From Mytilus edulis (lineage: Eukaryota), in assembly GCF_963676685.1 (NCBI RefSeq), contig NC_092353.1, positions 38,068,001-38,132,000 on the forward strand: a DNA stretch of 64,000 nt, in the 5' to 3' direction. The position numbers and the translations under genes were made by a program. Positions 24,570 through 62,300 of the stretch are shown here, piece after piece. The first letter of the stretch is position 1; every line of letters starts with the position of its first letter. Under the pieces are notes generated by a model. That model saw nothing but the letters and a program-made list of their open reading frames with translations. It did no database searches and was not told where the DNA came from.

Positions 24570-25329
24570 TGTTGTCCCCATCAGATAGTATGATGTGAAT
24601 ATCTGCAGATATCTTATTCTTCATGTATTTTTTTGTTCCTGTCACGTTGAAATATGCCACACACAAAACCTACATAGCATTTATAGTTTGGAAAAGAGTT
24701 ATCTCCCATGTTAAGTAATTTCTTCATTAAAGAAAATATAAGTTATCTCCCTTTTATTGTAATTTTAATTGACATAACTATTCAAATATACTTCAATGAA
24801 CATTAGGCATACAATTCTAAAATTGTTTAATAAATTGTTTATACTATACATCTTATGAAACTTTGCTATACATTTCTTATAATTATCTTATAAACATGAT
24901 AAAACCTTTCTATACATTTCTTACAACCATCTTATAAAACCTTGCTATTATGCTATACATTACTTATAAATTTATAATCATTTTATAAAACTCTGCAATA
25001 CATTTCTTAAAATCATTTTATAAAACCCTGCATTACATTTCTTATAAAATTTTGCTATATATTTCTTATAATCATCTTAAACATGTTTTTAAATCTGACT
25101 CCACTTAAAAACAAATTCATGACACAAGTTTGATTTTTTATTGTACATGTAACATGTTACAATAAAATGGTATTCATCTTCCATTGCAGCAATATATAAA
25201 TTTTAAATGTATGCACAATGACCATATGCATGCATATATATGTATATACAAATAAAGAACATAAAAAGAGCCCTTGCTTATAATATAAGGATACATTTTT
25301 TAATCCACTGTTTATACATATATGTCTCT

Positions 25330-31395: not shown

Positions 31396-31579
31396 CTGAA
31401 ATATTAAATATGTATTTCTCGCTGAAATACTTATATCCTTTTGATATTTCTTTGTCTCCCTGACTCCTACTTCCTGATTTTACAACAGACTCGACAAAGC
31501 TAAAATTGATGGCCGGTAAACAAGTCAAATCCTTCGTAGAAGTATGCTCTGTTAGTTTTTCGATGTCATTTGCCGCCAT
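31396..31579 (-). pseudogene. Orphan first coding exon, copy B
   Basis: Same exon and donor as 6699-6882; its upstream region is not interrupted by the Penelope-like insertion. Confidence 0.45.
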
Positions 31580-37188: not shown

Positions 37189-38039
37189 AATAAACAGGAT
37201 TGAAAAAATGTTGGAAAGCAGTAAGCAGAGGAATTGCAAACTAGAATATTTATTCTGGAAAATTGAAAAAGCCAGTTTTTTCTTTGATGTTGACAGAAAT
37301 GAACTTGTAGCAAAGTATCTTTTTGAGATAGAAAGTACCTGTGATGTTGTTACAGCCATAGGTACTGCTTTGGCCCCTGTTTTTGGAATTTATTTCCTCC
37401 TCAAAGGAAAATTTTACATGCGAAGAAAGCAGCTGGAAAATGCAGTAAAAGATCTTACAATGGCCCAGAAATTGTTCAACGAACATAAATTTGTACGACA
37501 TCGTTATATGTATCATATTACAAATATTTATGAAAAAATAGGTCAAACTTATCTTATGCTTGATCCACCTGCAGTAGAAGAAGCCAGAGAAAATCTGTAT
37601 GCTGCTTTTAAGAAAGCTGAAGAAAAAGTTGAAAATTTTTATAATTTGGACATCCCTTCATTTATTGCAAGCATTGGTCGATTGTGGTATGTAATAGGAC
37701 TAAAAGAAAACGAATTGAAAAATACAAAAGAGGCGAAAGAAAATTTTGAAAAATCCGTTAGATATTACACAAAAGCTATGGCTTTGGACACGCAAATGAA
37801 TCTACACAAGTATGACAATTACGCTGATAAATTAGTGAAACGAGCTGAATCCTACGATGAGCTTGGATTGTTGAAAGTTTCTGGTGCATTTAGTGATGCT
37901 GTAAAAGATATCAAAGAAGCAGATAATATTAGAAGGAAAATCCTGCAGCCTCCTCACTATAAATGTACACATACACCACATCTAGTGGGCAAAATCCTCT
38001 TGCACAAGGCAAAACAGGAGTATGACAAGAAACAAAAAG
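37189..38039 (+). pseudogene. Intact TPR-like exon, copy B, with downstream exons deleted
   Basis: Acceptor ttctttttctag| and donor AG|GTATGG; 851 bp with an open frame. Homology to copy A stops at 39099, before the next exon. Confidence 0.8.
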
Positions 38040-38280
38040 GTATGGCTGTTTTTATAGCTGTATGTTATGGGTTTTTCCCATACCCTTGACAAATGGTGGT
38101 GTAGGGGGTATGTAAAATCCTGATCTCCTTATTTGATCTTACCTGGCAGAGAGACTTGAAAATTGTAATAAATAGATAGAAACTTTGAATAACGCAAATG
38201 AACAGCAAGACATGATCTACAAATAAGCCATAATACTTGAAATCCTCCATCCCATCGATATTGGAGTTATTGCCCTTTAA

Positions 38281-38874
38281 GGTGGTATGGGTGTCTTCCT
38301 CCATCTTGGATTGTAAAAAACAGAGAATCAAAGGTCCAGATTTTCCATCAAGTTAGCAAAATTTGATGCAGGAATGCAGATGTTTAATGTACATTTTCAT
38401 TTAAAAGTACCAATTTATAAGAATATAACTTCTAAATATTGAAATTTTTGCAAATGTTAATTATTTTTGGTTGTTTTTTTTTTTTTTTTTAAATTGGCAT
38501 TTTAAGGGGAGGTTACTCTAAAAAAGTACATTTTCTGAAGGATTCTGTATGAAATTTTCCTATTTTGTATTTTAGCCGGAAAAAACGTACGGTGACCCTA
38601 TCTTTTCTTTTGATATTCTCAAAGCAGTGTCTGAAAGCTATCTTTTCCTGAAGTATTTAACAATTCTATCATTATGTTTAGTTTCTAATCACAAAATGGT
38701 GTTTTTTCCTGTATAATCCATACAAAATGTGTCATTTTGTCCCGTCCTGTAGCTTGAGAAAATGCGCGGTGACCTATCATTTTTATTATATTTTTCAAAA
38801 TGTATCAATAGATACAACGTTTTGGCAAAGTATGAACAAATTCTATCATTTTTATTTTAGACTCCCATACCACC
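38281..38874. mobile_element. 594-bp MITE with TTAA TSD and GG...CC ends (Kolobok-like), copy B only
   Basis: 16-bp TIR ggtggtatggg[t/a]gtct; TTAA at 38277-38280 and 38875-38878; empty site gccctttaatgata at ~15211-15224. Confidence 0.92.
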
Positions 38875-39099
38875 TTAATGATAATTTTTGAATTTAAAAA
38901 AAAAATGTATAGATGATTCAAAACTTAAAAAAGGAAAATAATTAGAAGGATTAGAAAAAAGGGGGTCATTGTTGAAGATGCAGGTGAGTAACACAGACTC
39001 TTTAGTGCCTCTTGTTACATGTTAAAAGCATATTTTGTCTTTGACTGCTTTTCATTGTATGATCTTCTATCATTGATTGCTCATAAAAGGTTTTAATAC

Positions 39100-39975: not shown

Positions 39976-40741
39976 TTGTAGGATAAAAAACTTAATTCAT
40001 ATAGTTTTTTTCATTGACCCCCTCCCTCCCCTCCCCCTATCCCCCACCCAACCCTTTTTTAACTTAATTTGGGAAAAATTGATTAACCATTAAGGATTAT
40101 ATAAAATCGATGTCAATTAAACAAAACTTTCAGCAAGTTTGACCCCCCCACCCACCCCCTAAGTATTTAACTATTTGAATAATTATTTTTATCCTTTATT
40201 GGTTTAATAAATTGTTTATACAATACATCTGATGAAACTTTGCTATACATTTTTTATAATCATCTTATAAAACCTTTCTATACATTTCTTATAATTATTT
40301 TATAAAACCCTGCTTTACATTTCTTATAAAGCCTTGCTATACATTTCTTAAAATCATCTTTTAATATAAAACCTTTCTATACATTTCTTATATTTATCTT
40401 TTAAAACCTCATTTCTTATATTCATCTTATAAAACCTTGCTTTACATATCTTATAAATCATCTTATGATATAAATTATTGCAGATTAAACACATTTTTAA
40501 ATCTAACCTTCACTTAAAAAAGCTCCATGACACAAGTTTGATTTTATATTATACATGTAACATGTTCCAATAAAATGGTATTTATCTTCCATTGCAGCAA
40601 TATATAAATTTTAAATGCATGCACAATTAATACCATATACATGTATATACAAATAAAGAACATTACATTATAAAAAGAGCCCTATGCTTATAATATAAGG
40701 GTACACTTTTTAATCCACTGTTTATACATATATATGTCTCT

Positions 40742-42385
40742 TTAATGATCTTTCCCAGTGTGTATTCTCATATGAACTTTCAGGTTCCAATTCAAAGTGA
40801 ATTCCTTTTCACAAACATTACATTCAAAACCTTTCTCACCAGTGTGTTTTCTTATGTGTATTTTTAATGATTGACTGTGCCTAAAACTTTCACCACACAC
40901 ATCACATGTATAACATTTTTCACTACTATGAATTTTCATGTGTAATTTCAAATTTCCACTTTGAATAAAACCTTTACCACACAAATCACATTTATAACAA
41001 TAATCACCAGTATGTATTCTTTTGTGAACTTTTAAATTGTGTGCATGTTTATAGTTCTTTCCACATATATCACATTTATGAGGTTTTTCATCACTATGTA
41101 CTTGTAAATGTGATATCACATGTTTCTTCTGACCAAAATATTTACCACAAATTTCACATTTGTAAGGCTTTTCACCTGTATGTGTTCTGACATGTGCATT
41201 CAAGTGTGGTTTCTGCCGAAAAGTTTTTCCACACTCATCGCACTTGAAAGGTTTTTCCCCATTGTGTATTCTGGTGTGTAATCGCAAAGTGTCAATGCTT
41301 TTAAATTTTGCATCACATACATCACATGTATAGGGTTTATTATCAGTATGTGTTTTTAAATGTTCTTGTAAATGATGTCCGTGTCTAAAATCTGTACCAC
41401 AAACTTTACACTTGAAAGGTTTTTCACCCGTATGTATTCTCATATGTCCTACTAAGTAATCATTACGAGTAAACCTTTTACCACACTTTTTACACTCATA
41501 TGGTTTGTCACCAGTATGGGTTTTCATATGAGTTTTCAAAGTTTGGCCTGCTTTAAACACTTTAAAACATATATCACATTCAAAAGTATTCCTTGTTTTA
41601 TCCGAATGTATTTTTTTATGGTGTTGAAAGCTTTCTCTCCAAGCAAATGTTTTGTTGCAAACATCACATTTATAAGGCCTTTCACCAGTATGTATTCTCT
41701 TATGTGACTTTAAGTCAGAACCTTGATTAAACTTTTTACCACAAAACTCACATGAGTGAGGTTCATCGCCTGAATGTAATCTCATGTGGGTTTTTACACC
41801 CACTTTGCGAGAAAAGCCCTTATTGCAGACATCACATTCAAAGGGTTTCTTGCTTGAATGTATAATCATATGAGCCTTTAAATAATTATTTTGTGCAAAG
41901 TCTTTGTTGCATACATCACATTTATATGGTTTGTCACCTGTGTGTATTTGCATGTGCTTTCGTAAAAAAGCTCTCTGTTTTAACTGTTTACCACACACTT
42001 CACATGTGTATAAAGGTCTTTCCTCACCAGCATGTGTTCTCTTATGTCTAGATAATGTACCACTATCACTAAACTCTTTACCACATACATCACATTTATA
42101 TGGTTTCTCACCAGAATGGACTCTCATGTGCATCTTAAAAACATTTCCATAATTAAAATCTTTTCCACATATGTCACATTTATATGGTCGCTCGCCATTG
42201 TGTATTCTCATGTGTGGTGGTAAACTAGTTTTGCTTCTAAACTCTTTATTACAAATTTCACATTTGTATGTTTTTTTCTTTTGAGTATGAGTTTTCAAGT
42301 GTGTTTGAAAGTGGTCCTTTCGACGATACTGTTTGTCACATGAAATGCATTTGTAATTTTTTTTCTCACTATTTTGTGCCATCAT
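40742..42385 (-). CDS. C2H2 zinc-finger array protein, 19 fingers, copy C (all zinc ligands intact)
   Basis: 547 aa ORF with about 30 aa differences from copy A. Finger 9 Cys and canonical linkers are retained. Acceptor at 42641; candidate upstream donor (CG|GTAAGT) at 45778 in unique DNA. Confidence 0.95.
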   Translation of the reverse strand: MMAQNSEKKNYKCISCDKQYRRKDHFQTHLKTHTQKKKTYKCEICNKEFRSKTSLPPHMRIHNGERPYKCDICGKDFNYGNVFKMHMRVHSGEKPYKCDVCGKEFSDSGTLSRHKRTHAGEERPLYTCEVCGKQLKQRAFLRKHMQIHTGDKPYKCDVCNKDFAQNNYLKAHMIIHSSKKPFECDVCNKGFSRKVGVKTHMRLHSGDEPHSCEFCGKKFNQGSDLKSHKRIHTGERPYKCDVCNKTFAWRESFQHHKKIHSDKTRNTFECDICFKVFKAGQTLKTHMKTHTGDKPYECKKCGKRFTRNDYLVGHMRIHTGEKPFKCKVCGTDFRHGHHLQEHLKTHTDNKPYTCDVCDAKFKSIDTLRLHTRIHNGEKPFKCDECGKTFRQKPHLNAHVRTHTGEKPYKCEICGKYFGQKKHVISHLQVHSDEKPHKCDICGKNYKHAHNLKVHKRIHTGDYCYKCDLCGKGFIQSGNLKLHMKIHSSEKCYTCDVCGESFRHSQSLKIHIRKHTGEKGFECNVCEKEFTLNWNLKVHMRIHTGKDH

Positions 42386-43276
42386 TTATGTTGTTACTAA
42401 CACAACTTATCAGTCAATATGGTGTACATTATTGACATTGATAATAACATGACTATAACATCTGTTGTTGCCAATTAGTTAAAAAGTCTGTGACTATATG
42501 ATGCATTGTGTGTTGTGGACAACTTTTCTCATCTTCTTTTCATCGAAAAGTTATCATTAAATAAACTTGTCTACTTTTCCTGGTAGTATCTAATCTGCAG
42601 TATCAGTAAAGCATTTATAGAGTTGACAGTCAAAAGAAAACCTGTAAAAAGATAAAATCAGAATCAAATAAAAAAAAATACAAGAAGTTCAAAAGTACCA
42701 TTGAAAGTTTCATTGAATTTATCATATCATTAAAGGGACACTAGCTACCATATAATATATGATATTTTTTGTTCAATCATTTATGAAAGTAAAATGACAA
42801 TTTGTTTTGGTCAAACAAGGCTCAATAACATTGATGATGAATTATTCACTTGCAAGTGAATACTTCAATCTCATTGAATCTGTATTCTTGTGACCTTCAA
42901 ATTAATCCCTTAACTAGAGATCGATTATGCATGATTTATGCATGTTCAGTCATTAAAAGGAAGAGAATGTCAACATTAAAACATGAAATCAAACAGACAG
43001 AGAAAAATCCAATTGCACAAGGTTGCTATCTGTTTGTCAGTTTTCAGAGGTCATCTCCATAATCAATTAGATGGCATCTAGACTTTAACACGCACAAAAT
43101 TCTGTATACTATCTAGTATATGCATTGTTGACTGTTTCTTTCAGATTTTTATATGTGTTTTACTATATCATAAATCAAATATGAAAATTTAAGTCAAATC
43201 CGTGAACATGATTTTTACAGCTAGTGCCCCATGAAAGATAAACAAATGATAAATACTTTGTATATTATAGTACATA

Positions 43277-44392
43277 TGTAGGACTCTAAAGTGCGATGGG
43301 GACGCTAAAGTACGATGGTCACGCTAAAGTGCGATGGTATACGCTAAAGTTTGATGCCTCCATACGCTAAAGTCCGATGGTCCGCGAAAGTATAGATGTC
43401 AGAAACGTAGTTAGATTATGACGTTAATTGATACAAACTAAAAATGAACTAGCAGGAAGATGAATTACAAATATTGTTTAACAATGTCAATTACTAAATC
43501 AATTAAAACCTAACCGTGCTTTGTCGTCTGAGGCAAATGTGTTCTTTTTTATGCTGGAAAAAAGACTTGTATCCTTCAGTCGACCATTTTACTATTTAGA
43601 TATAAAATAGCATTCGCATAAATATCCTATATCTTGCTTTTATTGGAAGCGAACGAATTCATTGTGTTTGTTGCAGTTTATTTTGCGGTCCCCGTTAAAA
43701 TATTGTCGCTTTTATTGTAACGCCGGTAAAATAAAGGTACAATCATGCTTTAAGCGTAAAGCTTATAAATTGTGGACTTTAAGATCAGTTTGTGCATTGT
43801 AGGAAATTATAACATGTATTTGTACTCGCTACGAAAAAGGATAAATCAAGGCGAACACCGCCGTTTTATCGCACTTATATTAAAGCTTATACAAATAAAT
43901 GTTTATACTTATTCCGACATTGGCCGAATTTTGTATTTGCAATGACGACTGTATGGGGAGGTTTTCACATTATCAATAGACTGTTTATTGCTACACCGAT
44001 TATCCAATACGCCAAAATTGTTAAAACTCATTTACATGAAATACAGTATTTTGTGACAACTTCATTACCTTTATAGCAATTATAACGTGGTCAAACCTTT
44101 AAATTTAGATACAATTAAGCCGTAAATCATAAAGCCTATCACATCGTATGTTATACCTTAGCTTCTAGCTTTTGCAAAACGACTTGTGTTTTAACATCGA
44201 TATATCCGTGTACTTTAATGTTTTAGACTTTACCCTAGTGTTCCATCGTACTTAGCGTGTTTTACCATCGTACTTTAGCAAACAAACAACCATCGCACTT
44301 TAGCGCGACACACCATCATACTTCAGCGTAGACCATCGCACTTTAGCGTGACCATCGCACTTTAGAGTACCATCGCACTTTAGAGTCCTACA
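43277..44392. mobile_element. 1116-bp non-autonomous element with TGT...ACA ends and 4-bp TSD (Ginger-like), copy C only
   Basis: Perfect 23-bp TIR tgtaggactctaaagtgcgatgg; inverted subterminal arrays of a ~20-bp cgctaaagtgcgatgg motif; flanks cata/catg; empty site tagta-catg-tactga at ~3175. Confidence 0.82.
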
Positions 44393-46628
44393 CATGTACT
44401 GAAAATTCAGAAGTTATTGCATGCATTTATTATTGTGATTTTGTCATATTAGACTAAATTGGAATTTTAATTTTTGTGATATTCAGAAAAATTCTGTCAT
44501 ATCTGTTTGATTCATTATTGCGATTATAAACCTGTCATGCCTGTTGTATTTTTTGCAATAATAAAAACATCGCAATAAATCATTTCTCATTATATCATTT
44601 AAATTATATCTCAGCAAAAACACTGCAGGCCTATGGTAAGATTGAACTGTTTGCTATCATTTATAACTTTTAGATGTCTTATAAATTGTTATGTGTCAAA
44701 TAGAACTTGATTGTGGAATATCTGTTTGTCAGGTACAGACATTGACCAGGGTTGTAGCTAAGAATTTTTGAATGGAGCCCAGGAACTAGTTATTTTTGGC
44801 CATGATGAGTCCAACAGCAAGAAGAAAATATTTTATTGCAATAAATGTAATATTTTAGTCTCTATTTCCTAACAGAGCAATGCAATGACATTAAATTCAG
44901 ATCACTTTTAAAGTTTTGCTATAAAATGATGATATTTGTGTTTAACTCATACTGTGTTCAGATTTATATACAAAATATTTCAATCTTGATGCATCTGTGG
45001 ACTCACCAGTTTTGAAAATGGTGGGTCCAGACAGATTTGATGAGTCCAGGACTCATGGACTCGCCTTAGTGAGAACCCTGATTGACACAATCAGTGAAAT
45101 TATCTGCAAAATATAAATGTATGAAGATCAGGACAATAGCCTCAAATTGATCAATATTTTCCCTTAAAAAAATCATACCTTGTCCTTGTCCTTATAAAAG
45201 GCTACAAGACATGTATCTTTTTTAGAAGAATGTACATGTACATGTATGTTCAATGACTCCAGTTTCCTTATGTTTTTATTTTATTTTGTATTTTGTTTTT
45301 AATGTTGCTCAGTATGTATGTAACTTTCCTGAGGAGTTGCACTGACAAACTGTTACAGTAATATACTAGGGTCAACATTTTAATGGCATATTAACCTTTT
45401 TATTTAAGGGGCTTATATAATCCTATTGTAATGGCTGCCGTCATGATAAGGCAAAATGGCCGCTATGCAAATTAGCAAATTACCCCAAATTTTGCCATAT
45501 GAGTCAGCTAAAGTTTGTCTCAGAATGACCCATCTGCGGCATTTAAACTTTTCCAACTTCACAGGTAAGTCTGTACTCAGAGTAGTTTTTGACAAAAATA
45601 CAGCCATATAATGCATATTTGTCCGTTTGTTATGATGAACCTTAAGTTTTAACCTGAGTCACAATGGACGAACCCCACGGATGCCAAGTGATGGCGAAAG
45701 CTAACATGGTCATAGGTGGAATAAAAAGTGAGTTAATGCAAGACGTCAGAATAAGATATTAGCTACTTTAAACTTACCGACGCTAAAAAGCGGTTTGACC
45801 ACCTTGGGGAATGTTAGTAAGGGGGAAAGAAACCAATGTTGATATGTTGAAAACTTTACAAGCAGAAGTGATGTATTATCATAATATATGATGTATAGCT
45901 TTGAATCAACAGAGAGTCTGTGTCACTTTCTTGGATATATTGCATCTTCAATCATGCAGAGGCTCTCAAGAGCCTGAATCTCCTGTTGTTTTTTATTATC
46001 AAAAATGTTAATCAAAGTTTTTCTATTGCTTTTAAATTTTTAATGTCATGATCATTAAAAAGTGTGGATACAAACCAGTGTGGATAGTATCCAGCATTCT
46101 GAAAAAAGTAAAATCACAAAAATACCGAACTCCAAGGACTATTCAAAAAGGAAAGTCCCCAATCAAATGGCAAAATCAAAAGTTAACACATCAAACGAAT
46201 TGACAACAACTGTCATATTCCTGACTTGGTACAGGCATTTTCTTATGTAGAAAATGGTGGATTGAACCTGGTTTTATAGCTAGCGTATTGCATGGCAATT
46301 AGGAAAGGTGAGCTAAAAACAATAAACGAAACACAAATTATATGAACACAACCATAAATGACAACTACACAAATTATTTGATTTTGAGTTGTGCAAGGAG
46401 GTATAAAGTTTATGTCACGGTACATTACGTGTATCCAAACCCTGTCATAAGAACAAACATTCATTTTTTGTAAAAGGTTTTCTGTATGTATCAGTGTGTT
46501 TATTTATTCCAAATTAACTAGAGATACAAAATTTATTGATTTATATCTCACAAAACATGTTTAACTTGCTGAATTTTTGTTAATGTCCTTATTCAGGAAC
46601 ATCGAGGTAGCTTATGTTAGTCTTGTAC

Positions 46629-47178: not shown

Positions 47179-50100
47179 TTACACTATTTCAAAGGAGTCT
47201 AGTCCAGTTATCTTAAAACTGACTGATCTAAACCTTGAAAAGTCTTTTGCTTTGACAGCCACTATATGATCTCTGATTGATTTCAACACTGGTGGAAATG
47301 ATTCAAAATTACCTGCAATACTAGCAAGTTCTTTGTCCCACTCCCAATGACTATTAGAGAGCCATGGACGCTTAGAATCTTTGCCAATGACTGTTATCAT
47401 CTCGTTATAAGTTGGAATACAGACAGATTCCTCTAACATCGCTTTGATAAATAAAGCCTCGTGATCTCCATATGGAAAGAAAAGTATATATAGTCTCATA
47501 AGTCCCATGAAAAAAATAGTAGAATATTGAGGTGGCAAAACATACTTGTAGAGATTACATACGACTTTATTTTGTCCAACTTCTAGTAAGCCCTCAGGAA
47601 GGAAAGATAAGTCGTATCTAAACCCTGTACAATAAATTACTGCATCAATCTGTATGACGTCATTATCATCAAGAATAATGGAAGATGATGTAAACCTTTT
47701 AAAACTGGACGTTTTTTCGATAACATTTCCTGGCAATACAGTTGTTAGCTTAGAACCTCTGTGGCATAAATATACCTTCAAAATAAAATAATTATAGAAA
47801 TATTAATAGGAAGCTGTATTGTTTTATATTTAAAATATATATATACTTAGGGTATGAATTTCAAAACTGTAAACATTAAAAAGTGAAAGTTATTACCTGT
47901 TATTTCTCGTATTATATTTTTCGGGAAAAGTCGTAGAAGTCATTTAGTCATGTAAGTTACAAAGAAACAAATCAACAGGAGAAGTTTAGTCTGATGGCCA
48001 AACCCATGACGAACAAATGATCATTGAAATAAAAAATGATAGTAGTTGTGGTATCCTCAGATAATATAAATTTTAAGGTAGATTTTAGACATTATATACA
48101 TAACCACTCCTGTTTTTACATATGCACAATTGTGCTTACCGTTTTTGCATGTTCATAAATGTCGTGACATATATCCATTCCTGAATGACTCGCTCCCAAC
48201 ATGGCTACATTAAGTCCAGCAAACAGTTCTGGGCGTCTGTATTGTATACTATGAATCACCAATCCTTCAAAGTCCTTCTCATTATCAATCATAGGATAGT
48301 TTGGAATGGAACAGTTACTTCAAACATAAAATAAGAAGTGAGCTAATATGAAGTCATTTAATTAAAAAGGAAGTAACTGATAATCGAAAATTAAGGTTTC
48401 TGCTGTTACATTAGACTGTCAAGATTGTAGTTTAAATCTCATATTCTTACTAAAGTCTTTGAAATTACACTTTTTTAGTTATGTAACTGCCTACTTCGGG
48501 CGTACAAAATTTGTGAAGTTTTATTTTAGTAGAAAGCATTTTTTGTTTGGTTTTGCCTTAAAAGATTAAGTTTAAGTGCTATGGGAAAATTGAAAATAGT
48601 TTCCCTTTACCAGTTAAAAAAAGTAGTAAGTATAATAATCTCTTTAAAAATTGAGTGTTTCTGAAGCGCGTATGTTGATTTACCATCTTCAATAAATCGG
48701 CAAAATCATAAAAGCCAATGACGTGTAAAAGGTAAAAATACTGAACTCCGAGGAAAATTCAAAACGGAAAGTCCCTTATCAAATTAATGACAACATCAAA
48801 TGATAAAACACATCAAACGAATGGACAACTATCATATTCCTGACTTGGTACAGGCATTTTCAAACAAATAAAGGCATCGCTGTTCAAAAGTCAAATCGAT
48901 TGCTTGAGAGACAACAAATCCGGGTAACAAACTAAAATCGAGGGAAACACATCAACTTCTAGAAAAAAACAACTGACCAACAGAAACACTGAACAAACGC
49001 CAACATACAAGGAACCAACTATATATTTGTGAACAATTGCCATATTCTTGACTTGATACATGACAGTTTAAGAAATCAGTGGTTGGTTGAATCAGGTTTT
49101 ATGGCTAGCCAAACCTTCTGCTTATATTCATTGGTAGATCCAGGGAGAGGGGTCCGGGGGTTGGAACCCCCTTTTTTGGACGATCAATGCATTTGAATGG
49201 GGACATATAGTTGGACCCCCCGCCCCCGCCACACACACACACACACACAACCACCTTTGTCCTGGGTTGGGAACCCCTCTTTTTAAAATTGCTGGATCCG
49301 CCCCTGAGATTGCAATGAACAAATAATGTATGCTATGGACCTGCATGACTCAATTGACTTAAAGAGAATAAATAGCCAATTGAACCATACACGTTAATTA
49401 AACTTTGTCTGATTGACTTTAAACATTAGTTTGTTGATAATTTCTAAATATACTAATGGAAAATTCAAGAAAGATTTGAAAATCAGACAACAACAAAACT
49501 CATAAGTTGAAGATGGCATGGCCGAAGTCAGAATATACAAGACAGAAAACTATGGTTTAACAATGTAAACCACTCTTAAAACCAAGGCTCAACTCTGATG
49601 GTGAGGAGTTCCTGTTCTGTTAATGTCACCATTTTGCTGAACTCATGTCACGTAGCTAGGATTCTTAGTGGTAATAAGTCGTCAGAGGTCACACCTCAAA
49701 AATTAGGACGAAGGATAAGTCATTAGTAAAATGTCACTGTTTTAAAATAAGACTGGTGCACATGGGACAACGATCTCATTAGACTTTTATCATTTCTATA
49801 TAAGGGTATACCACATTCAGTGATGTTGAAAGGAACCGTAACGTAGGGGCGATAGATACCAGAGAAACAGTCAAACACATACATCGAAAATAAACTGACA
49901 ACGCCATGGCTTAAAATGAAAAAGACAAACAGACAATAATAATACATCAGAACCAACATATAAAAAATAAAGACTGAGCAACACGAACCCTATCAACAAC
50001 TGGGGGTGATTTAGTAAAATATTGGTAAGTAAAACATTATTATATAAGCTTAAGGTACTATTAGATAAAATTTACCCATTACAAACAATAACAGCATCAA

Positions 50101-52958
50101 ATTCTTCAACATGACTGTCATTCGTTTTTCTATTGTCTCCATATGTTAACAACCATTTTGTATCCTGTGTATTTGCAGAAACGGGGTTAACTGACTGTAC
50201 TTCAGTATTGAACTACAAACATTGTCATATGCAGGAATTAAAAAAAAACAATAGTATGAAAGAGGTTGAAAAAACAGCTGTTTAGTGAATTTTAACTTAG
50301 TATTACAAACATGAGAACATAACTTGTTATTCTCTATATTGAAAAGAAGCGAAGACTAATGATCTGTAAAAAACATCTCACAGTGAAAATTGATATTCAT
50401 TATTCATTTTACTCATATGGATTTCTTTAAAATCTCGAAAGAACATTTGAAAGCAGTCTTTTTCGAGTATCACCAGCCCATTAATCAGCTATGTTGACAT
50501 GAATTATCATTGATATTGTCATAATTATAAACTGTTTACAAAACTTTGATTTTTTGAAATATTCAGGTGTTTCAACCTCAGTAATAGATTACCTTAGATG
50601 TATTTCCCAAAACATTTGAGAATTTTAATCCTTAATGCGCTTCAAATTGGTACTTTATTATGTCTTTTAAAAAAATATTCGAGCGTAACTGATGAGTTTT
50701 TTGTAGGCGTTTTGTCTGGCGCCAATACCAAATTTAATTAAGCTAGGTATCTATATGATGAGGTTGTTTACAACCACTTGGTCAATTTCACTGCTGGTAG
50801 AGTTTTTATTCCCCAGGTATCACCAGCCCCGTAGTCCGCACTTCTGTGTTGACATAAATTATCATTGATATTGTTATAATTATAAATTAACTTTGATTTT
50901 TTTATATACTCAGGCTTTTCTTCTTCATGGATAGATTATACCTTAGATGTATTTGGAAAAACTTTTCGGAATTTTTGGTACTTAATTCGTTTCAAATTCG
51001 TACTTTATTAAGCCTTTTCAAATTCTTTTGATTGGAGTGTCAAGATGAGTCTTTTGTAGACGAAACGCATGTCTAGCGCAATACAAAATTTTAATCCCGG
51101 TATCTGTGATGAGATTGTTTACAGCAACTGTCTCGATGCTACTGACCTAGTGTAGTATTTATTCCCGATAGTAATCACAAGCACCGTAGTCAGCACTAAG
51201 GTGATGACATGAATTATCATTTTCATAATTATAAATTAACTGTTTACAAAACTTTGAATTTTGGAAATACTAAGGCGTTTCTTCCTCAGGAATATACTAC
51301 CTAGCTGTTTTGGCAAACTTTTAGTAATGTTAAGTCCTTAATACTCATCATATTCGTAATTTATTTGGCCCTTTTAACTTTCTTTTATTCGAGCGTCACC
51401 GATGAGTCTTTTGAAGACGAAACGCGCGTCTGGCACAAATACAAAATTTTAAACATGGTATCTATGATGAGTTTGTTTTCATTTGAAAACTAGTATCAAT
51501 ATGCCACAGTATCCCTGATAGTGTTAATTCAATCCTACCTATGCGGTAGTCGTATTGAGTGATATTCTTAACATGGATTTTGTTCTATCTAGCTTTGATT
51601 AATATTTTGACAACCTGCAAGGACATCTGTCTACTAAAAAAGACCATGTTGGCCTTTTTGAGTCTTTTTTTGGTGTTTAATTTGTGCGATCGTCGGCTTT
51701 GCTCTCCGTCAACGAGATACGTCAGAAATGTCCTTTCATTCGGGTAAATTTGACATAATTGACTATGAGTCATTGTGGCAGCAAGCGCCTATTTCTTACC
51801 TTGATATATTTCCGAATATTACATTGGTCAGCAACTTTACGAATATAATTTAAAACATCCCGTTGGGTAGGAAAAGTTGGACAGTCCTCGTCCATGGGAA
51901 AACCTTCTAACTGCATTAATTGTTTTGGACGATTAGTCCTGTAATTTAAGATAAAAGGTAAAAATAAATATAAATGATAGATATTAATTATTATTATTAC
52001 GAATGTTTTGATTCAGAGTATTTTCCTAAACTTTCCCTTTGAATAGTGAATTCGAAGTGGAGCAAAAAAAAAAAAAAAAAAAACCCTACTGTGTAGGACG
52101 CTTAAAATTATATTGGGTTGTTTCTTCTAACAGTTCTTTGTTTTTTCGTCGTTTTTCTTCTTAACAAAGGACTTGATTGCTTCTCTTTAAAACTACTAGT
52201 ATTGGCCTTTGATTGCCTGCTTTGTATCTTTTAGCTGAAGCTTGTTTTGTAGTCGTTTTTTATTTCCAAACAAGTGAATTGTCTGTTTTTCTTCAACTAT
52301 TGGAATTTAATTGTCCACTTTGTATCTTTGAACTGATGCTTGTTTTTTCGTCGGTTTTATCCTTTACAAGTGAATTGTCTGTTTTTCTTCAACTATTGTT
52401 TTTTGAACTCCAGCTTTGTATATTCTTAATGCTGTTTGTTTTTTCGTCGTCTTTCTTGACAATGTTTTTCTTCAATTATTGGCGTTTGATTGGCCGTTTT
52501 TATCTTTTGACTGTGTTTTTCAAATTGATGTTATTATAATTTCTACTGTTAACATATAGATGAATAGAATCATGGCTTTCTGTCGCCTAGTCCAGTAAGT
52601 TTGCCGAAATCTTGATTAAAATTTGATCATGGGGGACAAGAAACATTTTCCACACCTAAAAAAAATAGGAAGAACAGAACAAACGAAATCAATTATATCC
52701 GGTTTTTTTCTAACCTAACCAAGTCAACTTATAAAATCAATTTTAAATTTAGACTTACTGAAGATTGCTATACATAGCGGAGTTAATTTTACGTCCATAA
52801 ACATCCTTATCCGTTTGATCTGTGTAAAGCCATAGACCTCCTAGGTCATAGTTCCTCTCAAAACAAGTAAGCAGAAACTTTTTGTTCTCAGATAGCCTTC
52901 TTAGGGCAGAAATACCCATTATACCTGCTCCAATAACAGCTATCCTTTTTTCGTCCAT
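47179..52958 (-). CDS. Flavin-containing monooxygenase (FMO family), 416 aa; exons 52958-52759, 51938-51800, 50212-50076, 48317-48140, 47775-47179
   Basis: Five GT-AG exons join in frame (1251 nt). FAD motif IAVIGAGIMG, GGLW, FDAVIVCNG, FMO signature FEGLVIHSIQY (FxGxxxHxxxY), NADPH motif LGASHSGMD and IYCTGF. Confidence 0.95.
49129..49306. mobile_element. Short GC-rich MITE in FMO intron 3
   Basis: cattggtagatccag / ctggatccgcccctg imperfect TIR; internal gggttgg(g)aacccc hairpins. Confidence 0.6.
50467..51478 (+). mobile_element. Non-LTR retrozyme: ~2.9 tandem units of 350-354 bp, each with a minimal type I hammerhead
   Basis: Unit starts (gta(a)tcac.agc.c) at 50467, 50817 and 51171; hammerhead motifs at 50681-50723, 51035-51079 and 51391-51436. 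Confidence 0.85.
51391..51436 (+). ncRNA. Type I hammerhead ribozyme, best-preserved copy (U4C core variant)
   Basis: gagcgtca CCGATGA gtctt-ttg-aagac GAAA cgcgcg TC| tggcac: core boxes, 5-bp stem II, palindromic minimal stem III, GUC site ending at 51430, stem I gtca/tggc. Confidence 0.8.
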
Positions 52959-55726
52959 CTTAATGACTGATATATATTGGTGTAATAGTCTTACGTGAAG
53001 TTATGACATAGGCTGTAAAGATCAAAATAAATAATACTGTTTGCATCAAAACCAAACATTACAGCTGACGGACTATAATTAACCATTTGTTATAAGTCAT
53101 GCAGTGGTAAGAATCCTGAGAAAGTATTAAATGGCACAAGGACCTTGTTGCATATTTGTTAGGAATGGCCAAAGACAAAATTTTGATAAAAACATATCAA
53201 CAAAACAAGAAAAGTTCGTTTTATTTGTGTCACAAGAAATTCTTCACTCTACTCTAGTAGTGATTATAATAAGGTTGTTTTTTTCATGTCTTTTTTCTTC
53301 AATAAAATAATTGTAAGTAAAAAAACTAAGAATCACATTTCTGCTTACCGGATCATAAATCGTAGTTTTTACAGTCAATGGTAAACATCTCTGAACAATG
53401 CATAAAATTTATTAAGTTGAAAAACAAGTAGGTCAAAAAATCTGCATGTGTCTACACATACATTTAATTTGACCTTCGAGAAGAAGTTTATAGAATAGGA
53501 TCATGGTAGAAAAGGTTATCGTATATAGAGGCATAGTGAATTCAAGTACAAAAAGGTATCGCTCTTTTTTTCATTCATGCTTAGTCTTGTAGTTTAAAAC
53601 GACATTTCAGTCACTTGTTTTGTTCAGATTGAAGTACAGGGACCCGATGTTGCATTAATTGTTTTGGACGATTAGTCCTGTAATTTAAAATAAAAGGTAA
53701 AAATAAATATAAATGATAGATATTAATTATTATTTTTACGAATGTTTTGATTCAGAGTATTTTCCTAAACTTTCCCTTTGAATAGTGAAGTGGAGCAAAA
53801 AAAAAAGCTCAACTGTGTAGGACGCTTAAAATTACATTGGATTGTTTCTTCTAACAGTTCTTTGTGTTTTCGTCGTTTTTCTTCTTAACAAAGGACTTGA
53901 TTGCTTCTCTTTAAAACTACTAGTATCGGCCTTTGATTGCCCGCTTTGTATCTTTTAACTGAAGCTTGTTTTGTAGTCGTTTTTATTTCCAAACAAGTGA
54001 ATTGTCTGTTTTTCTAGCATTTGATTGTCCACTTTGTATCTTTGAACTGATGCTTGTTTTCTCGTCGGTTTTATCCTTTACAAGTGAATTGTCTGTTTTT
54101 CTTCAACTATTGTTTTTTGAACTCCAGCTTTGTATATTCTTAATGCTGTTTGTTTTTTCGTCGTCTTTCTTCTTGACAATGTTTTTCTTCAATTATTGGC
54201 GTTTGATTGGCCGTTTTTATCTTTTGCCTGTGTTTTTCAATTTGATGTTATTATAATTTCTACTGTTAACATATAGATGAATAGAATCATGGCTTTCTGT
54301 CGCCTAGTCCAGAAAGTGTACCGAAAGTTTGATTAAAATTTGATCATGGGGGACAAGAAACATTTTCCACTCCTAAAAAAAATAGGAAGAATAGAATAAA
54401 CGAAATAAATTATATCCGATTTTTTCTAACCTAACCAAGTCAACTTATAAAATCAATCTTAAATTTAGACTTACTGAAGATTGCTATACATAGCGGAGTT
54501 AATTTTACGTCCATAAACATCCTTATCCATTTGATTTGTGTAAAGCCATAGACCTCCTAGGTCATAGTTCCTCTCAAAATAAATAAGCAGAAACTTTTTG
54601 TTCTCAGATAGCCTTCTTAGGGCATAAATACCCATTATACCTGCTCCAATAACAGCTATCCTTTTTTCGTCCATCTTAATGACTGATATATTGGTGTAAT
54701 AGTCTTACTTGAAGTTATGACATAGGCATAAATAATACTGTTTGCATCAAAACTAAAAATTACAACTGACGGACTATAATTAACCATTTGTTATAAGTCA
54801 TGCAGTGGTAAGAATCCTGAGAAAGTATTAAATGGCACAAGGACCTTGTTGCATATTTGTTAGGAATGGTCAAAGACAAAATTCTAATAAAAACATATCA
54901 ACAAAACAAGAAAAGTTTCATTTGTGTCACAAGAAATTCTTCACTCTACTCTAGTAGTGATTATAATAAGGTTGTTTTTTTCATGTCTTTTTTCTGCAAT
55001 AAAATAATTGTAAGTAAAAAAACTAAGAATCACATTTCTGCTTACCGGATCATAAATCGTAGTTTTTACAGTCAATGGTAAACATCTCTAAACAATATGA
55101 ATGTATGCATAAAATTTATTAAGTTGAAAAGCAAGTAGGTAAAAAAATCTGCATGTGTCTACACATACATTTAATTTGACCTTCGAGAAGAAGTTTATAG
55201 AATAGGATCATGGTAGAAAAGGTTATCGTATATAGAGGCATAGTGAATTCAAGTACAAAAAGGTATCGCTCTTTTTTTCATTCATGCTTAGTCTTGTAGT
55301 TTAAAACGACATTTCAGTCACTTGTTTTGTTCAGATTGAAGTACAGGGACCCGATGTTGCATTAATTGTTTTGGACGATTAGTCCTGTAATTTAAAATAA
55401 AAGGTAAAAATAAATATAAATGATAGATATTAATTATTATTTTTACGAATGTTTTGATTCAGAGTATTTTCCTAAACTTTCCCTTTGAATAGTGAAGTGG
55501 AGCAAAAAAAAAAAGCTCAACTGTGTAGGACGCTTAAAATTACATTGGATTGTTTCTTCTAACAGTTCTTTGTGTTTTCGTCGTTTTTCTTCTTAACAAA
55601 GGACTTGATTGCTTCTCTTTAAAACTACTAGTATCGGCCTTTGATTGCCAGCTTTGTATCTTTTAACTGAAGCTTGTTTTGTAGTCGTTTTTATTTCCAA
55701 ACAAGTGAATTGTCTGTTTTTCTAGT
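51912..55726. repeat. Tandem duplication (~1.7-kb unit, ~2.2 copies) of the FMO 5' region
   Basis: tgcattaattgttttggacgattagtcctg at 51912, 53651 and 55358. Confidence 0.95.
54475..54674 (-). pseudogene. Duplicated FMO first coding exon
   Basis: Copy of 52759-52958 with 5 aa changes (S>Y, T>I, C>Y, D>N, T>M). Donor kept, upstream acceptor deleted; the following exon-2 copy has only its first 27 nt. Confidence 0.85.
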
Positions 55727-57278: not shown

Positions 57279-59333
57279 TTCCTGTATTAAAAAAGGACAA
57301 GGATCTTTCTGATGTCAGCAGTTAACGGGGTATCACAGTAACCCCAGTCCTAGGAAAAGTTTTCGAATCATGACTGCATTTAACCTAAACGTAATCTGCA
57401 AAATATTACGGACTTTTGGCTTCACTATAGGCCTAAACCCTCTTATCTCTAGCTTCATTATATCTGAATCAAAATATGATAAAACAAGGAAAAACAGTGA
57501 ATTTTATATGGGTTTCTTGGATGTCAAATCAGCCTTTGACGTGGTACAGCATGACATTATACTAGATAAATAACTAGACTCAAATATTCCTTCTTTCCTA
57601 TGGCTGGTAATTAAAGATCTATATTCTAATCTGACAACAAAAGTACAATGGCAAGGCGATCTTAGTGAAAAATGTTCGGTCCACCAAGGTGTACGACAAG
57701 GTGGGATTTTGTCTACTCATCTCTACAAAATATTTGTACAAGATCTACTTTTAGAACAAGAAAGAAACTCTTTAGGTTTAAATACTGGAAATATTTTTGT
57801 CGGTACTCCTACTTGCGCTGATGACATGGCTTTTATTTAAACAAATAGAGACAATTTCCAAATTATGCTCAACGTTTCGGAAAGATATTATAATCAACAT
57901 CACTACAAAATTAATCCTACAAAAACAAAAATTGTCACATGTGGAAAGGTTACAAACGCTGATCGGACTCTATACGATACTCCGGTTACAGTATCAAAAG
58001 AAGCAACTCATTTAATGTAGGTATAACTAGAAGCTGGAAAAAGGAAGGAGAAATAAATGTGGCAAATAGAATAAAGCTCGCAAGACGAACTCTGTACGCA
58101 TTACTGGGCTCTGGGGTGCATGGAACAAATGGCTTAGATCCAGTAACATCTTATAACATCTACAACACATATGTTCTAACAAGACTCCTATATTGTTTGG
58201 AAGCCATTCCTTTAAATAAGACCAATATAACGCAGCTGGAATCTTTTCATAGAAAGAGTTTAAGACATTTTCAATCTCTTCCTCAACGCACGGCTATAGC
58301 TGCAATATATCTTTTGATTGGTGGACTGCCAATAGAAGCTGAACTTCACAAAAAGCAATTGTCTTTTCTCCATAATTTACTTTCTTCAAATGTTCAAAAA
58401 GTTAATGATATCACCATCAGACAAATGTCGGTTAACTATGATAACCCGAACAGCTTTTTTCAACAATTCGAGAAATCCTATTAAAGTATGGACTGCCTCC
58501 GATTCATCTTCTTCAAGAATCTCTCCCTTCAAAATTGAAATGGAAATCTCTTGTAACGAAGCATCTGAACACATACTGGCAAAATACATTAAGGGACGAT
58601 GCCGAATCTAAATCAACTCTAAAATATATGGAAACTAAACATCTTCTTATTGGCAAAAATCACTCAGTGTGGACTGTATTTGACAAGACAAAAGCCGAAG
58701 TTCGGAAAGCTATTATTAAAGCTAGAATAGTTTCAGGAACATTTATACTGAATTCTGATCGAGCGAAATTTAATCAATCACCTTCACCAGTCTGCCAACT
58801 ATGTAATCTTTCTGAGGAAAATATCTCTCATTTTCTCCTGGAGTGTCCACTATTATCAAATACTAGAATTACATACTTTGAACCAATCTATGTTACTCAA
58901 CATACAACAGCTGAAGTCTGGGATAGTGTCTTTCAATCCAAATCAAGCATTATCAGGCTAATTATAGACTGCAGGCATTTTTCACAAACACTAAGAGACG
59001 GCAAGATAATGAACACGATAGAAGCCAAAACTAGGGAGATGTGCTATAAACTTTATATAAAACGCGTAAAGTTGCTTGAGGCAATGGATGGTTGACGGTC
59101 TACAAACAAACAGTTTTTATTCCGTATAAGTTGTGTTTTAATGTTTGTAAATGACACTCGGATTTTATGTGTATAAAGAAGAGTTTTACTGTGTATTTTA
59201 ACCGTTGGACAATAACTTTTAAAATATATCCACCATATATTTTAATATGTAAATAGTACTTTTACTTGGAGATAATTCTTGGTGTTCCTTATAAAGGAAG
59301 CTTAAATATGGAGAGAAGAATAAGAAGAAGAAG
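57279..59333 (+). mobile_element. 5'-truncated, degraded LINE (RTE-X-like): RT, C-terminal Cys-His knuckle and (AAG)n tail
   Basis: Frames give IPVLKKDKD..RGITVTPVLGKVFE, FLDVKSAFDVV, QGVRQGGILSTHLYK, TPTCADD and CQLC...ENISHFLLEC, with several stops and frameshifts. Ends agaagaataagaagaagaag. Confidence 0.9.
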
Positions 59334-62300
59334 TATACACATATAAGTAAAAAAAACATTAATATCTATGCACACGCATGCGGAAGAATATCTCAAGAAC
59401 GTTTGCAATCTCAAGGTACGATAACTCTGCATGGATGAATTTTTGCGGGAAAATACGAATGCTTACTCAAATTCATTCTATTTAAAAAAAATCGAATTAT
59501 TACAGAAGAGTGACGTGTCCACCATGCACTTGCACTTCACTATTATTAATATAGTAAAATAGAATGGTAAAAATGCATGTAAATTATATATTACCTGTAA
59601 CTGTAATATACAAGTATTAATATAATATATAACAATAAACCAGAGTATACTGATTTTTATCACTACAATATAATAGTCATTACGGCGAGAATGATTTGCC
59701 TGTCATTAATTTATCATCCACGCACGAAATTTTCCCAGAAAAAAATTACACCTGTACATTAAACTCATTTATAGGTATAAAATGTGATTTTTTTCTGTAA
59801 TAAGTGCTTATCGGATCATTCACAAGAACTTGCGGTCATCCGATGTTCAGTACTTCAGTACTTTGATTTTGTTTGTTGTGTAACTGACCGACTCTATTTT
59901 ACATTTCATATAACGGTTAAGTCTTTATGAGGGTGTGGATGAGTGCGGGTTACAGAATAGAGAATAATTGGCACAAAGAATAAAGAAAAGAGAAAAATGG
60001 AACACAAAAATAAAGAATAATAAATAAAGAGGTGCTAAAATATAAATAATAGAGAATAATGGGCATAAGTTTAAAGAATAGAGAAAAAATTGTCTAAAAA
60101 TTTAAAGAATACAGAAATGAAGGACCCGCCAACTAGAGACTTCTTTATCAGTCATATAAAACTCTTCACAAAAATTGTCATGAAGTGCACTTTTAAAGAA
60201 TGCACAATTGAAACGAATAACTAAGTACTCACTTATTTCCTTCATAGTATCCGGAATACAATCACAGAGGGAATAAGTACTTAGCACTTAATTAACTATT
60301 TCTAATTGTTTGAAGTACCGTTGTGGTATCATATTTACTTGAGGTTATTCACATGTCTCGTCTGTTGGTCAATATCTAGGGAACTCTGTCTGTAGATGCA
60401 TGTTTTCTAAAATAACTGAAATATTTTCTGATGTGAACACTTGTATTTACAAAAGCCTTCAGTTTTGGTAGTAGTAATAATTTGTTTAAGTTCGCATGAA
60501 CTTAAAGAAGATTGTCATGTTATGTCGTAAATTGTAAATGAGGGGCGAAAGATACCAGAGGGAAAGCCAAACTCACAGTAGATCGAAAACAATGTAAACT
60601 GACAACGCCATGGCTAAAAAAGAAAAAAAGACAAACAGACAAACAATAGTACACAAGACACAGTTAACATATAAAATTAAAGACTAAACAAAAATTATAC
60701 CACGTTTACAGCTCGTTTTATACATTTTGTTCGTACTTTTGCGATGAAGTTGTCTATTGATTTATGGTTGGTGTCCCTTTCCCTTTTTAGCGTACACAAA
60801 TTCGCGTCAGTTGAATGGCAATGCTTATGAAACTACAATAGGTGTGTTTCTTATCACAAATTTGTATGGTTAAACATATAAAAAGCAATAAAAAAAAATA
60901 TATCAGACACCGTGCACGCGGCCAAAAAAGCTGAAACATTTCCATGGAAAGATCTTTTGATTTTGTTTAGATTAAGTTTTTTTTTCTTGCGCTGTACTGT
61001 GGTTTTAAAAGATGTCAATATCGTATTATAATGAACACAACAGTTACGCGAACCGAAGATTTTGAAAAAGTGTCCCGAAAGGGCCCCACACTATTTGAGT
61101 GTAACAAGTAAAAAAATTGAATTAACCATAAATGTAGCTCCAGTAGGACCATAAGGCGGGTCAGGAAACCCTTGCCCCTAAATCTGCAACTGTTTTTGAA
61201 ACTCACACTGTTTACCCGTAAAAAAATATTTGTAAGAGTTAATATCTCTCCAAGCACTGGGTTTTTTTTTTTTTGTGGGCGCATTTCCTCTTTAATGTTC
61301 AAATAAATCGATCGTTTTATATCCTCAGGATATTCTGATGAATCTTGACGGATGTGATGCGAAGACACTTTATTTAAGATAAATGTTGTTTTTGTGTCAC
61401 ATGAGCCGCAAGTGAAATAGACCGATAGGGTATCTTGTTTGAGGTCCTAGGTACACCAAATAAAATGAAATACATTTATGGGTAGGGATTTTTCGAATAA
61501 ATCGAAATATGAATTAGGGGTAGTTTTTTTTAAAATCCAGACGAATGTACCCAATTTCTCCACCTAAAAAATAACACCAAAGACAAAACTGAAGCAAACT
61601 TGATGCTGGGTAGCAATTCGTATACGGTTTTAGAATGGTAAAACTTTATCCTCATGCATTTTTAATGGAAACAAACTATATTTTTTTCATGAATCAATAT
61701 TTTATCTAATAGATTTCGAATCCGATATGTTGCTTAAATTAAACCTTCCTCACCTCCCTCTACATACCCATAGGCTAGATGAGTGGTCGGTGCCGAAACT
61801 GCACGACTTAGTTTTCAATCGACTGTGTCGAGTCTTCAATACCAGTAACACAGCTCCTATATATATATCTATGATCATGCGGCCAACGCTATTCTATACG
61901 AGTCAACACAAATAGTTTCTACTTTAAGTTTTTATAGTCTAGCTATGCTCGGTTTTAAAATAATGCATATGGTATGATTGCCAATTATAAGTATATGATA
62001 ATTAAATCCACGAGACTTTTGTAAAACTGCGAAATTAAAAATCCACGATAATACGTCCGATTCTCTCTTATCCACGAAAATTGGTACCCACGAAAAAAAA
62101 TATATCTACGGTAAGCAATTAATGGTCACGTCACAGTCTTTAACAATGGGACAAACATTAATACCATATAATGTCAGCACCCGACACGAAAAATTTGAAA
62201 TCATTCAAACGAGCCAACCAACGGCCTAATTCATAACAATACAATTCAGTTGTTTGTTTCTCCAATTTTACAGAATTATGTCTGTGTGCCTCTTTTTTTC

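What the first reader, a model, noticed from the sequence alone, without database searches (positions are those of the whole stretch)
50467..51478. Tandem hammerhead-ribozyme (retrozyme) array hidden antisense in an FMO intron
Seen: three diverged ~350-bp direct repeats, each with a hammerhead at the same place. Their consensus rebuilds a full minimal type I ribozyme: gcgtca-CUGAUGA-gucu(n5)agac-GAAA-cgcgcg-UC|uggcgc. Each copy has a different lesion: unit 1 keeps CUGAUGA but lost GAAA, unit 2 has a damaged first box, and unit 3 differs only by U4C. Established: tandem minimal type I hammerheads with a palindromic stem III define metazoan non-LTR retrozymes, which cleave as dimers and give small circular RNAs; they have been reported in Mytilus (work of Cervera and de la Pena), so the class is not new. 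Inference: this copy is tolerated because it is antisense to the FMO pre-mRNA, and it is decaying. No ORF marks it.
Basis: partly seen in the sequence, partly recalled or inferred. Interest (0 to 1): 0.7.

Follow-up and report, generated by a model that had tools for sequence, protein, structure and literature searches.

The report
Dead mussel retrozyme, likely Naiad-copied
This is an old, broken copy of a very common small jumping repeat that carries a self-cutting RNA motif and lies backwards in an enzyme gene's intron; the copy is ordinary, but its family stops at the same RNA hairpin as Naiad jumping genes, which likely identifies the enzyme that copies it.

Summary
A 2.8-unit array of ~357-nt repeats (50467-51481, +) lies antisense in intron 2 of an open FMO gene. 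A paralog has the empty site. It is an old copy of a family with at least 12,361 intact hammerhead cores, matching the mussel non-LTR retrozymes in anatomy.

Corrections: the ribozyme is canonical type I, not "minimal"; unit 3 has U4C plus a stem I mismatch; no unit is intact. "Tolerated because antisense" found no support: 5 sense against 4 antisense intronic cores. No RNA could be assigned to this locus.

Family level: 121 of 157 copies end 30-60 nt past the cut site, with scattered 5' ends. They stop just before a 63-nt hairpin that is 55/63 identical to one in front of Naiad retrotransposon ORFs; Naiad copies stop at the same place. Naiad reverse transcriptase is therefore the likely helper. 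This scan noted that link before, on other DNA of this genome; I took it as a lead and tested it. I found it in no paper.

The parts
50467..51481 (+). Retrozyme insertion of 2.8 units; 5' end cut inside a unit (family position ~97), 3' end at the family's fixed end (51474-51481, last bases ambiguous with the target)
   Evidence: empty site in paralog
50467..50716 (+). Unit 1, partial (250 nt), ending at the position of cut site 1
50683..50722 (+). Hammerhead remnant 1: CUGAUGA kept; GAAA and helix III lost
50717..51073 (+). Unit 2, cut site to cut site (357 nt), 82.5% identical to a young subfamily B monomer
50773..50834 (+). Decayed copy of the Naiad-type hairpin (-9.7 kcal/mol, z 0.1; young copies -27 to -28, z about -3)
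51037..51079 (+). Hammerhead remnant 2: first box broken, helix III loop changed, stem I mismatch
51074..51430 (+). Unit 3, cut site to cut site (357 nt), 84.3% identical to a young subfamily B monomer
51124..51189 (+). Decayed copy of the Naiad-type hairpin (-10.7 kcal/mol, z 0.0)
51393..51436 (+). Hammerhead 3, least damaged: U4C at 51400, C-A mismatch in stem I at 51435; predicted cut after 51430
51431..51481 (+). Tail past the cut site, ending where the next hairpin would begin; predicted start of reverse transcription
   Evidence: the role is inferred
50459..50466 (.). T-rich left junction resembling the right junction (51475-51481): possible short target duplication or microhomology, not resolved
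   Evidence: family test
52759..52958 (-). FMO-like gene, coding exon 1
51800..51938 (-). FMO-like gene, coding exon 2
50213..51799 (-). FMO intron 2 (1587 nt, GT..AG), host of the array
50076..50212 (-). FMO-like gene, coding exon 3
48140..48317 (-). FMO-like gene, coding exon 4
47179..47775 (-). FMO-like gene, coding exon 5 with stop codon

Best explanation
This is an old 2.8-unit copy of a very abundant hammerhead-bearing repeat, inserted backwards in an FMO intron with all three ribozyme motifs and both hairpins damaged, and it was likely pasted in by a Naiad retrotransposon enzyme that is predicted to bind a hairpin the two share and to copy a small RNA circle several times round. Shown: the array, its lesions, the intron position, the empty site in a paralog, the family's fixed 3' end and scattered 5' ends, the hairpin shared with three Naiad families, and Naiad ends at the same hairpin-relative place. 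From the literature, for the mussel family: self-cleavage at about 0.1 per min and abundant circles. Inferred: (1) read-through transcripts of young arrays are cut to ~355-nt monomers and ligated to circles; (2) Naiad protein binds the hairpin, nicks AT-rich DNA and starts cDNA at the few bases just 5' of the hairpin; (3) it runs round the circle and stops at random, which gives a fixed 3' end, a variable 5' end and a non-integer number of units; (4) this copy has since drifted neutrally and is most likely inactive.
For: Family size: 12,361 exact intact cores, 0 for the reversed control; U4C cores number 130, so U4C is sporadic decay. Ends: 121 of 157 family fragments end +30 to +60 after the cut site, against 9 of 156 5' ends in that interval. 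RNA reads also leave the family sequence at +41 to +43 into unrelated flanks. A cleaved linear monomer would end at the cut site, so the template ran past it. Hairpin: retrozyme A and two Naiad families give the same predicted 63-nt fold; 55 of 63 bases match one of them; 6 of 23 pairs change on both sides and 97.8% of cells pair. It lies just before the ATG in 18 of 20 long Naiad loci and 19 of 30 Naiad endonuclease loci, and in 0 of 17 loci of other Penelope-like elements. 104 of the 121 retrozyme ends lie -5 to +1 from the hairpin start; 13 of 24 Naiad ORF rows end -5 to +4 from it and 2 more run into a tandem copy. The Naiad call rests on GIY-YIG before RT and on CxC and DKA motifs. A purified Poseidon element starts reverse transcription inside its RNA (PMC11167929). 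In 8 of 11 other multi-unit arrays, units are closer to each other than to any outside unit. Decay: terminal branches 0.10-0.14; both hairpin folds lost.
Against: No biochemistry: binding, priming and circles were not tested here. 9 of 24 Naiad rows gave no usable end, including all 8 of the 1007-aa family. The hairpin of the third Naiad family has an insertion and gave no BLAST hit at E 0.1. The pair counts use 6 related sequences and a structure derived from them (16 of 500 shuffles reached 6 pairs). A multimeric linear transcript or local duplication would also give similar units, and the window's three units do not form an exclusive clade. No pile-up of read ends at the cut site was among the rows shown (2 rows not shown). 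The end map uses 80 loci from the first 12.3 Mb of one contig, chosen for an intact core, with a few duplicates. Other Penelope-like families with hammerhead-like motifs exist in the genome and were sampled only through one GIY-YIG search. U4C can keep some activity in a viroid (PMC3088659), so unit 3 may not be fully dead.
Confidence: 0.75

Rival explanations
1. Same decayed retrozyme, but mobilised by a hammerhead-bearing Penelope-like element (Neptune or Poseidon type) from whose terminal repeat it derives; the hairpin is only a shared promoter or 5' UTR relic.
For: The 2026 preprint finds Xenopus retrozymes homologous to the terminal repeats of Penelope-like elements. This genome has several intact RT-GIY-YIG families with hammerhead-like motifs downstream of the ORF.
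Against: In the 48 GIY-YIG loci compared, retrozyme matches were scattered fragments, not a terminal repeat flanking an ORF; 0 of 17 non-Naiad loci had the hairpin. A promoter role alone would not place both families' 3' ends at the hairpin's 5' foot.
Confidence: 0.12
2. One unit was inserted and then tripled on the spot by unequal crossover or slippage, as in a minisatellite, without repeated copying of an RNA circle.
For: Units within young arrays are more alike than between arrays; the preprint discusses local amplification.
Against: The array starts and ends at different unit positions exactly as single and partial copies of the family do. The three units have long independent branches, which fits one old event. 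This rival changes only the step that made the tandem, not the identity of the element.
Confidence: 0.1
3. One reading: the copy persists because it is antisense, since sense copies would cut the pre-mRNA and be purged; or it still has a role as a ribozyme or antisense regulator of FMO.
For: It is antisense. It is present in DNA runs under two organism labels (one may be the source of the assembly). Xenopus retrozymes are depleted in introns.
Against: 5 sense against 4 antisense intact intronic cores. All three ribozymes and both hairpins are damaged. 477 of 481 and 115 of 118 reads over 51400 in run X7 carry the family base, so they come from other copies. The paralog lacks the array.
Confidence: 0.08

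Closest known systems
Mytilus galloprovincialis non-LTR retrozymes (Cervera and de la Pena 2020, PMC7229834; introduction, mussel section, discussion and passages read; supplement not readable)
   Same: Type I hammerhead in tandem 350-390-bp non-coding repeats of low GC, thousands of copies, two related ribozyme families (here A 355 nt and B 360 nt, 86% identical), abundant RNA.
   Different: This copy is decayed. The fixed 3' end and the Naiad hairpin are not in the sections read. I could not compare sequences directly, so identity with that family is inferred from anatomy.
Naiad Penelope-like elements (Craig et al. 2021, PMC8557442; section 6 and passages read)
   Same: 5' truncation, partial tandems, a 63-nt hairpin, and 3' ends at its 5' foot.
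   Different: Naiads encode GIY-YIG plus RT and lack canonical hammerheads; the retrozyme encodes nothing, has a hammerhead and shares only the hairpin.
Poseidon element PAc of Anolis (Frangieh et al. 2024, PMC11167929; main text and part of methods read)
   Same: Reverse transcription starts inside the RNA, downstream of the hammerhead cut site, and genomic ends fall on those sites; AT-rich targets.
   Different: Autonomous, different clade; starts within a stem-loop inside the ORF, whereas here ends fall just 5' of a hairpin.
Vertebrate retrozymes as non-autonomous Penelope-like elements (bioRxiv 10.64898/2026.07.22.740005; parts 1-3 of 5 read; supplements not seen)
   Same: Proposes Penelope-like helpers; about 43% of Xenopus copies are intronic.
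   Different: Based on terminal-repeat homology in Xenopus; no molluscs, no hairpin, no orientation analysis (0 hits for these terms).

Membership tests
Metazoan non-LTR retrozymes | Canonical type I hammerhead (6-bp helix I, 4-bp helix II, short helix III with palindromic loop) | tested here: met
   Family core; Rfam hit on unit 3 below gathering; definition. Met for the family; damaged in all three units here.
Metazoan non-LTR retrozymes | Tandem units of about 150-400 bp with one hammerhead per unit | tested here: met
   357-nt cut-to-cut units; 16 young monomers of 336-365 nt
Metazoan non-LTR retrozymes | Non-coding, GC under 45% | tested here: met
   GC 33%; longest stop-to-stop frames over the array 47-62 aa
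Metazoan non-LTR retrozymes | Dispersed, high copy number, mobile | tested here: met
   12,361 cores; empty site in paralog
Metazoan non-LTR retrozymes | Self-cleavage in vitro | not testable with these tools
   Reported for a mussel repeat; predicted lost or weak here
Metazoan non-LTR retrozymes | Expression as circular monomer RNA | tested here: inconclusive
   Family RNA in 4 of 4 runs; circles and tandem transcripts cannot be told apart; none assignable to this locus
M. galloprovincialis retrozyme family | Sequence identity to the published elements | not testable with these tools
   Supplement too large to read
'Active retrozyme' of the 2026 preprint | [quoted passage not shown] | tested here: not met
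   0 of 3 units complete (definition)
Minimal hammerheads of Penelope-like elements | Helix III absent | tested here: not met
   2-bp helix III with palindromic tetraloop present in the family and unit 3
Naiad elements (autonomous) | ORF with N-terminal GIY-YIG, CxC, DKA and RT | tested here: not met
   Absent from the array; present in the candidate helpers
Non-autonomous partner of Naiads | Shared cis element and shared 3' end position | tested here: met
Non-autonomous partner of Naiads | Copied by Naiad protein | not testable with these tools
   Needs a purified-protein or cell assay
Penelope-type insertion | Regular target-site duplication | tested here: inconclusive
   7 of 70 young copies have a 7-nt junction match (null mean 1.3, max 4), none 8 nt or more

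The most novel reading that the evidence does not exclude
Mussel retrozymes are circular-RNA parasites of hammerhead-free Naiad retrotransposons. They captured the 63-nt hairpin that opens the Naiad transcript; the Naiad reverse transcriptase docks on it, starts cDNA directly 5' of it and rolls round the circle. Because Naiads end at the same hairpin-relative point, Naiads themselves would need a tandem read-through or circular template with the hairpin behind their 3' end.
Probability: 0.65. Interest if true: 0.65.

Novelty: new member of a known kind. Interest (0 to 1): 0.4.

Why it matters
The locus itself is a fossil among thousands and matters little. The family-level result bears on a stated gap: a 2020 review says animal retrozymes show no conserved motif that points to their helper retrotransposon (PMC7761336). 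A 63-nt hairpin shared with intact Naiad families, at the point where both kinds of copy end, names a helper and a signal, and makes the copying of a natural RNA circle into DNA testable in vitro. The sample also suggests that intact hammerhead cores can sit in either orientation in introns.

Tried and rejected
Tandem Repeats Finder did not report the array; it is too diverged.

Looking for an autonomous element with a retrozyme-like terminal repeat among 48 GIY-YIG loci gave only scattered fragments. Shared flanks between copies led to chimeras with other repeats, not to an ORF.

A Pfam accession that I recalled for a Penelope domain was not in the library. The supplement of PMC7229834 could not be read; it and the preprint's supplements may hold sequences or end maps that bear on membership and novelty.

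The run search listed no RNA holder for this stretch, which is no evidence either way. FMO exons had depth under 1 in the two RNA runs laid (6% and 18% of each read), so splicing across the intron could not be confirmed from reads. The strand skew of family reads in run X7 was not used, because the library's strandedness is not known.

Base skew as a proxy for gene strand was dropped: the four FMO introns gave mixed signs. The array with three intact cores in L068 lies downstream of a same-strand helicase-like exon, but no further exon was found in the flanks fetched, so it was left out of the orientation count, as were loci with tandem paralogs or exons on one side only (L036, L052, L058, L075, L080, second core of L038).

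A composite ribozyme built from complementary lesions of two units was considered from the sequence and rejected: each pairing leaves U4C or mismatches in stem I.

Full report
Observation. The window holds three diverged direct repeats about 355 nt apart. Rfam's type I hammerhead model hits the third at 51393-51436 on + (32.8 bits, E 6e-05, gathering score 34). The core pattern occurs once in the window and in 0 of 100 shuffles. Against a young family member the array runs from unit position ~97 through two full 357-nt units to ~50 nt past the third cut site, 2.8 units in all. Unit 1 lost GAAA and helix III. Unit 2 lost C3-U4 and has stem I and helix III changes. Unit 3 has U4C and a C-A mismatch in stem I. 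No unit is intact.

Host gene. Pfam FMO-like hits fall on the minus strand on both sides. Five exons with GT..AG introns join to an open 416-aa frame, and the array is in intron 2, antisense. A paralog on the same contig (78-90% identical protein per exon) has the same exons, no family sequence in 20 kb, and joins the array's two flanks directly. The array is therefore an insertion. A T-rich 5-7-nt match at both junctions may be a target duplication or microhomology; across 70 young copies such matches are only slightly enriched (7 of 70 at 7 nt, null mean 1.3; none at 8 nt). Contigs of two DNA runs under two organism labels carry parts of this very array; one run spans both junctions and may be the source of the assembly.

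Family. The intact core occurs 12,361 times in the 1.37-Gb genome, the reversed control 0 times. The U4C form occurs 130 times. I studied 80 loci covering the 100 listed matches, all from the first 12.3 Mb of contig C1. They hold two subfamilies, A (355 nt, consensus of 13 monomers) and B (360 nt, one monomer), 86% identical; the window's units are 82-84% identical to B. In a tree of 70 units they sit in B on branches of 0.10-0.14. Size, copy number, two subfamilies and low GC match the mussel retrozymes of Cervera and de la Pena (PMC7229834), which cleave at about 0.1 per min and accumulate as circles. The supplement was unreadable, so membership is by anatomy, and the genus is my inference. 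In that literature this is a canonical type I ribozyme; 'minimal' means lacking helix III (PMC4209133, passages), and most invertebrate motifs cleaved as monomers (PMC7761336, section 8).

Expression. On a young copy, 5,647-12,040 reads were laid in each of 4 of 4 RNA runs. On the window, reads over the array are cross-mapped family reads: 477 of 481 and 115 of 118 carry the family base at 51400 in run X7, 121 of 122 and 60 of 62 in X10. FMO exons had depth under 1 in both. Nothing shows this locus is transcribed; two partly read runs cannot show it is silent.

Ends. Of 157 family fragments with a free 3' end, 121 stop 30-60 nt past the cut site; only 9 of 156 5' ends fall there (the set includes a few duplicated loci and diverged relatives). 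RNA reads leave the family sequence into unrelated flanks at +41 to +43. The window's array ends at the same place. A cleaved linear monomer ends at the cut site, so the template must have continued past it, as a circle or a multimer does (inference). Penelope-like elements show the same polarity, and one purified element starts reverse transcription inside its RNA, downstream of its hammerhead (PMC11167929). In 8 of 11 other multi-unit arrays each unit's closest match is in its own array; 2 fail and 1 is uninformative. That fits repeated copying of one monomer but does not exclude multimeric templates or local duplication.

Helper. My own search among 48 GIY-YIG loci found no element with a retrozyme-like terminal repeat. 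Earlier notes of this scan proposed a hairpin shared with Naiads; I took that as a lead and tested it. A 63-nt hairpin starts at +45 (A) or +51 (B) after the cut. The same predicted fold lies directly before the ATG of three Naiad families with open ORFs of 1000, 1007 and 1053 aa: in 18 of 20 long loci (the other 2 are cut short at the 5' end) and 19 of 30 endonuclease loci, against 0 of 17 loci of other Penelope-like elements. Retrozyme A matches the 1000-aa family at 55 of 63 bases, and this is the only BLAST match between them. Across 6 sequences, 6 of 23 pairs change on both sides and 97.8% of cells pair; the controls are weak because the sequences are related. 104 of the 121 retrozyme ends lie -5 to +1 from the hairpin start. 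Of 24 Naiad ORF rows, 13 end -5 to +4 from it, 2 run on into a tandem copy, and 9 gave no usable end, among them all 8 of the 1007-aa family. In the window both hairpin copies have lost the fold (z 0.1 and 0.0 against about -3).

Orientation. I scored 6,389 frames in 50 ten-kb loci and scanned 106 of them against Pfam. Eight loci in 7 genes had host exons on both sides of an intact core. Sense: L067 (two cores), L047 and L048 (one gene), L049 (downstream exons found by recalled oxidase motifs). Antisense: L034, L038, L059 (different domains on the two sides, one gene assumed), L065. That is 5 against 4. Antisense orientation is thus not needed for a single intact core to persist. No sense array with several intact cores was established, so the claim stays open for those.

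Mechanism. Shown: insertion, decay, fixed end, shared hairpin, shared end position. From papers: cleavage and circles in the mussel family. Inferred: Naiad protein binds the hairpin, primes just 5' of it at a nick in AT-rich DNA and copied a circle 2.8 times here; the copy then drifted. U4C lowers but need not abolish activity (PMC3088659, passages), so 'inactive' is likely, not shown.

Novelty. The class and very likely the family are published. The helper link was not found in print: the two papers holding both 'Naiad' and 'retrozyme' do not make it in the parts I read, and searches listed nothing closer (listings only). A review states that no such motif was known. Subscription papers and unseen supplements could hold it. 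This scan had already reported it from other windows of this genome, so this locus adds a further test and an empty-site case, not a first sighting. Verdict: ordinary decayed member of a known kind, with a testable family-level mechanism.

Noticed in passing
window 51912-55725: FMO exon 1 and intron 1 are duplicated upstream (95% over 2.1 kb, second exon 1 near 54476-54682, plus a third partial copy); exon 2 is not fully duplicated.
   Followed up: no
window 46100-46284, 48734-48864, 48878-48987, 60535-60691: Short pieces matching the terminal repeats of the three Naiad families, two of them in FMO intron 3; 49845-49981 resembles the last of these.
   Followed up: partly
window 1-15443, 24701-39099, 40202-45538: Large segmental duplication (about 99%) and a third copy (about 90%) holding a long C2H2 zinc-finger exon (547-aa frame at 40742-42385).
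   Followed up: no
window 57313-59095: Frameshifted LINE-like reverse transcriptase remnant (RVT_1, zf-RVT).
   Followed up: no
L046:3761-4430, L059, L061, L063, L065, L072: A recurring chimera: a decayed hammerhead and tail fused to a repeat that resembles the Naiad terminal region, shared at about 90% between loci.
   Followed up: partly
L133-L135, L137, L138, L140, L147, downstream of the ORF: C-terminal GIY-YIG Penelope-like families carry their own hammerhead-like cores, one with C at position 4 (L138), mostly followed by (TA)n.
   Followed up: partly
L134 and L136: A second type I hammerhead family with a different helix II and a palindromic helix III.
   Followed up: no
L222-L226, before the ATG: The 1053-aa Naiad family has an extra 10-bp stem-loop inserted in the shared hairpin.
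   Followed up: partly
L026, L027, L034: Inverted family fragments next to arrays, as described for Penelope-type insertions; none beside the window's array.
   Followed up: no
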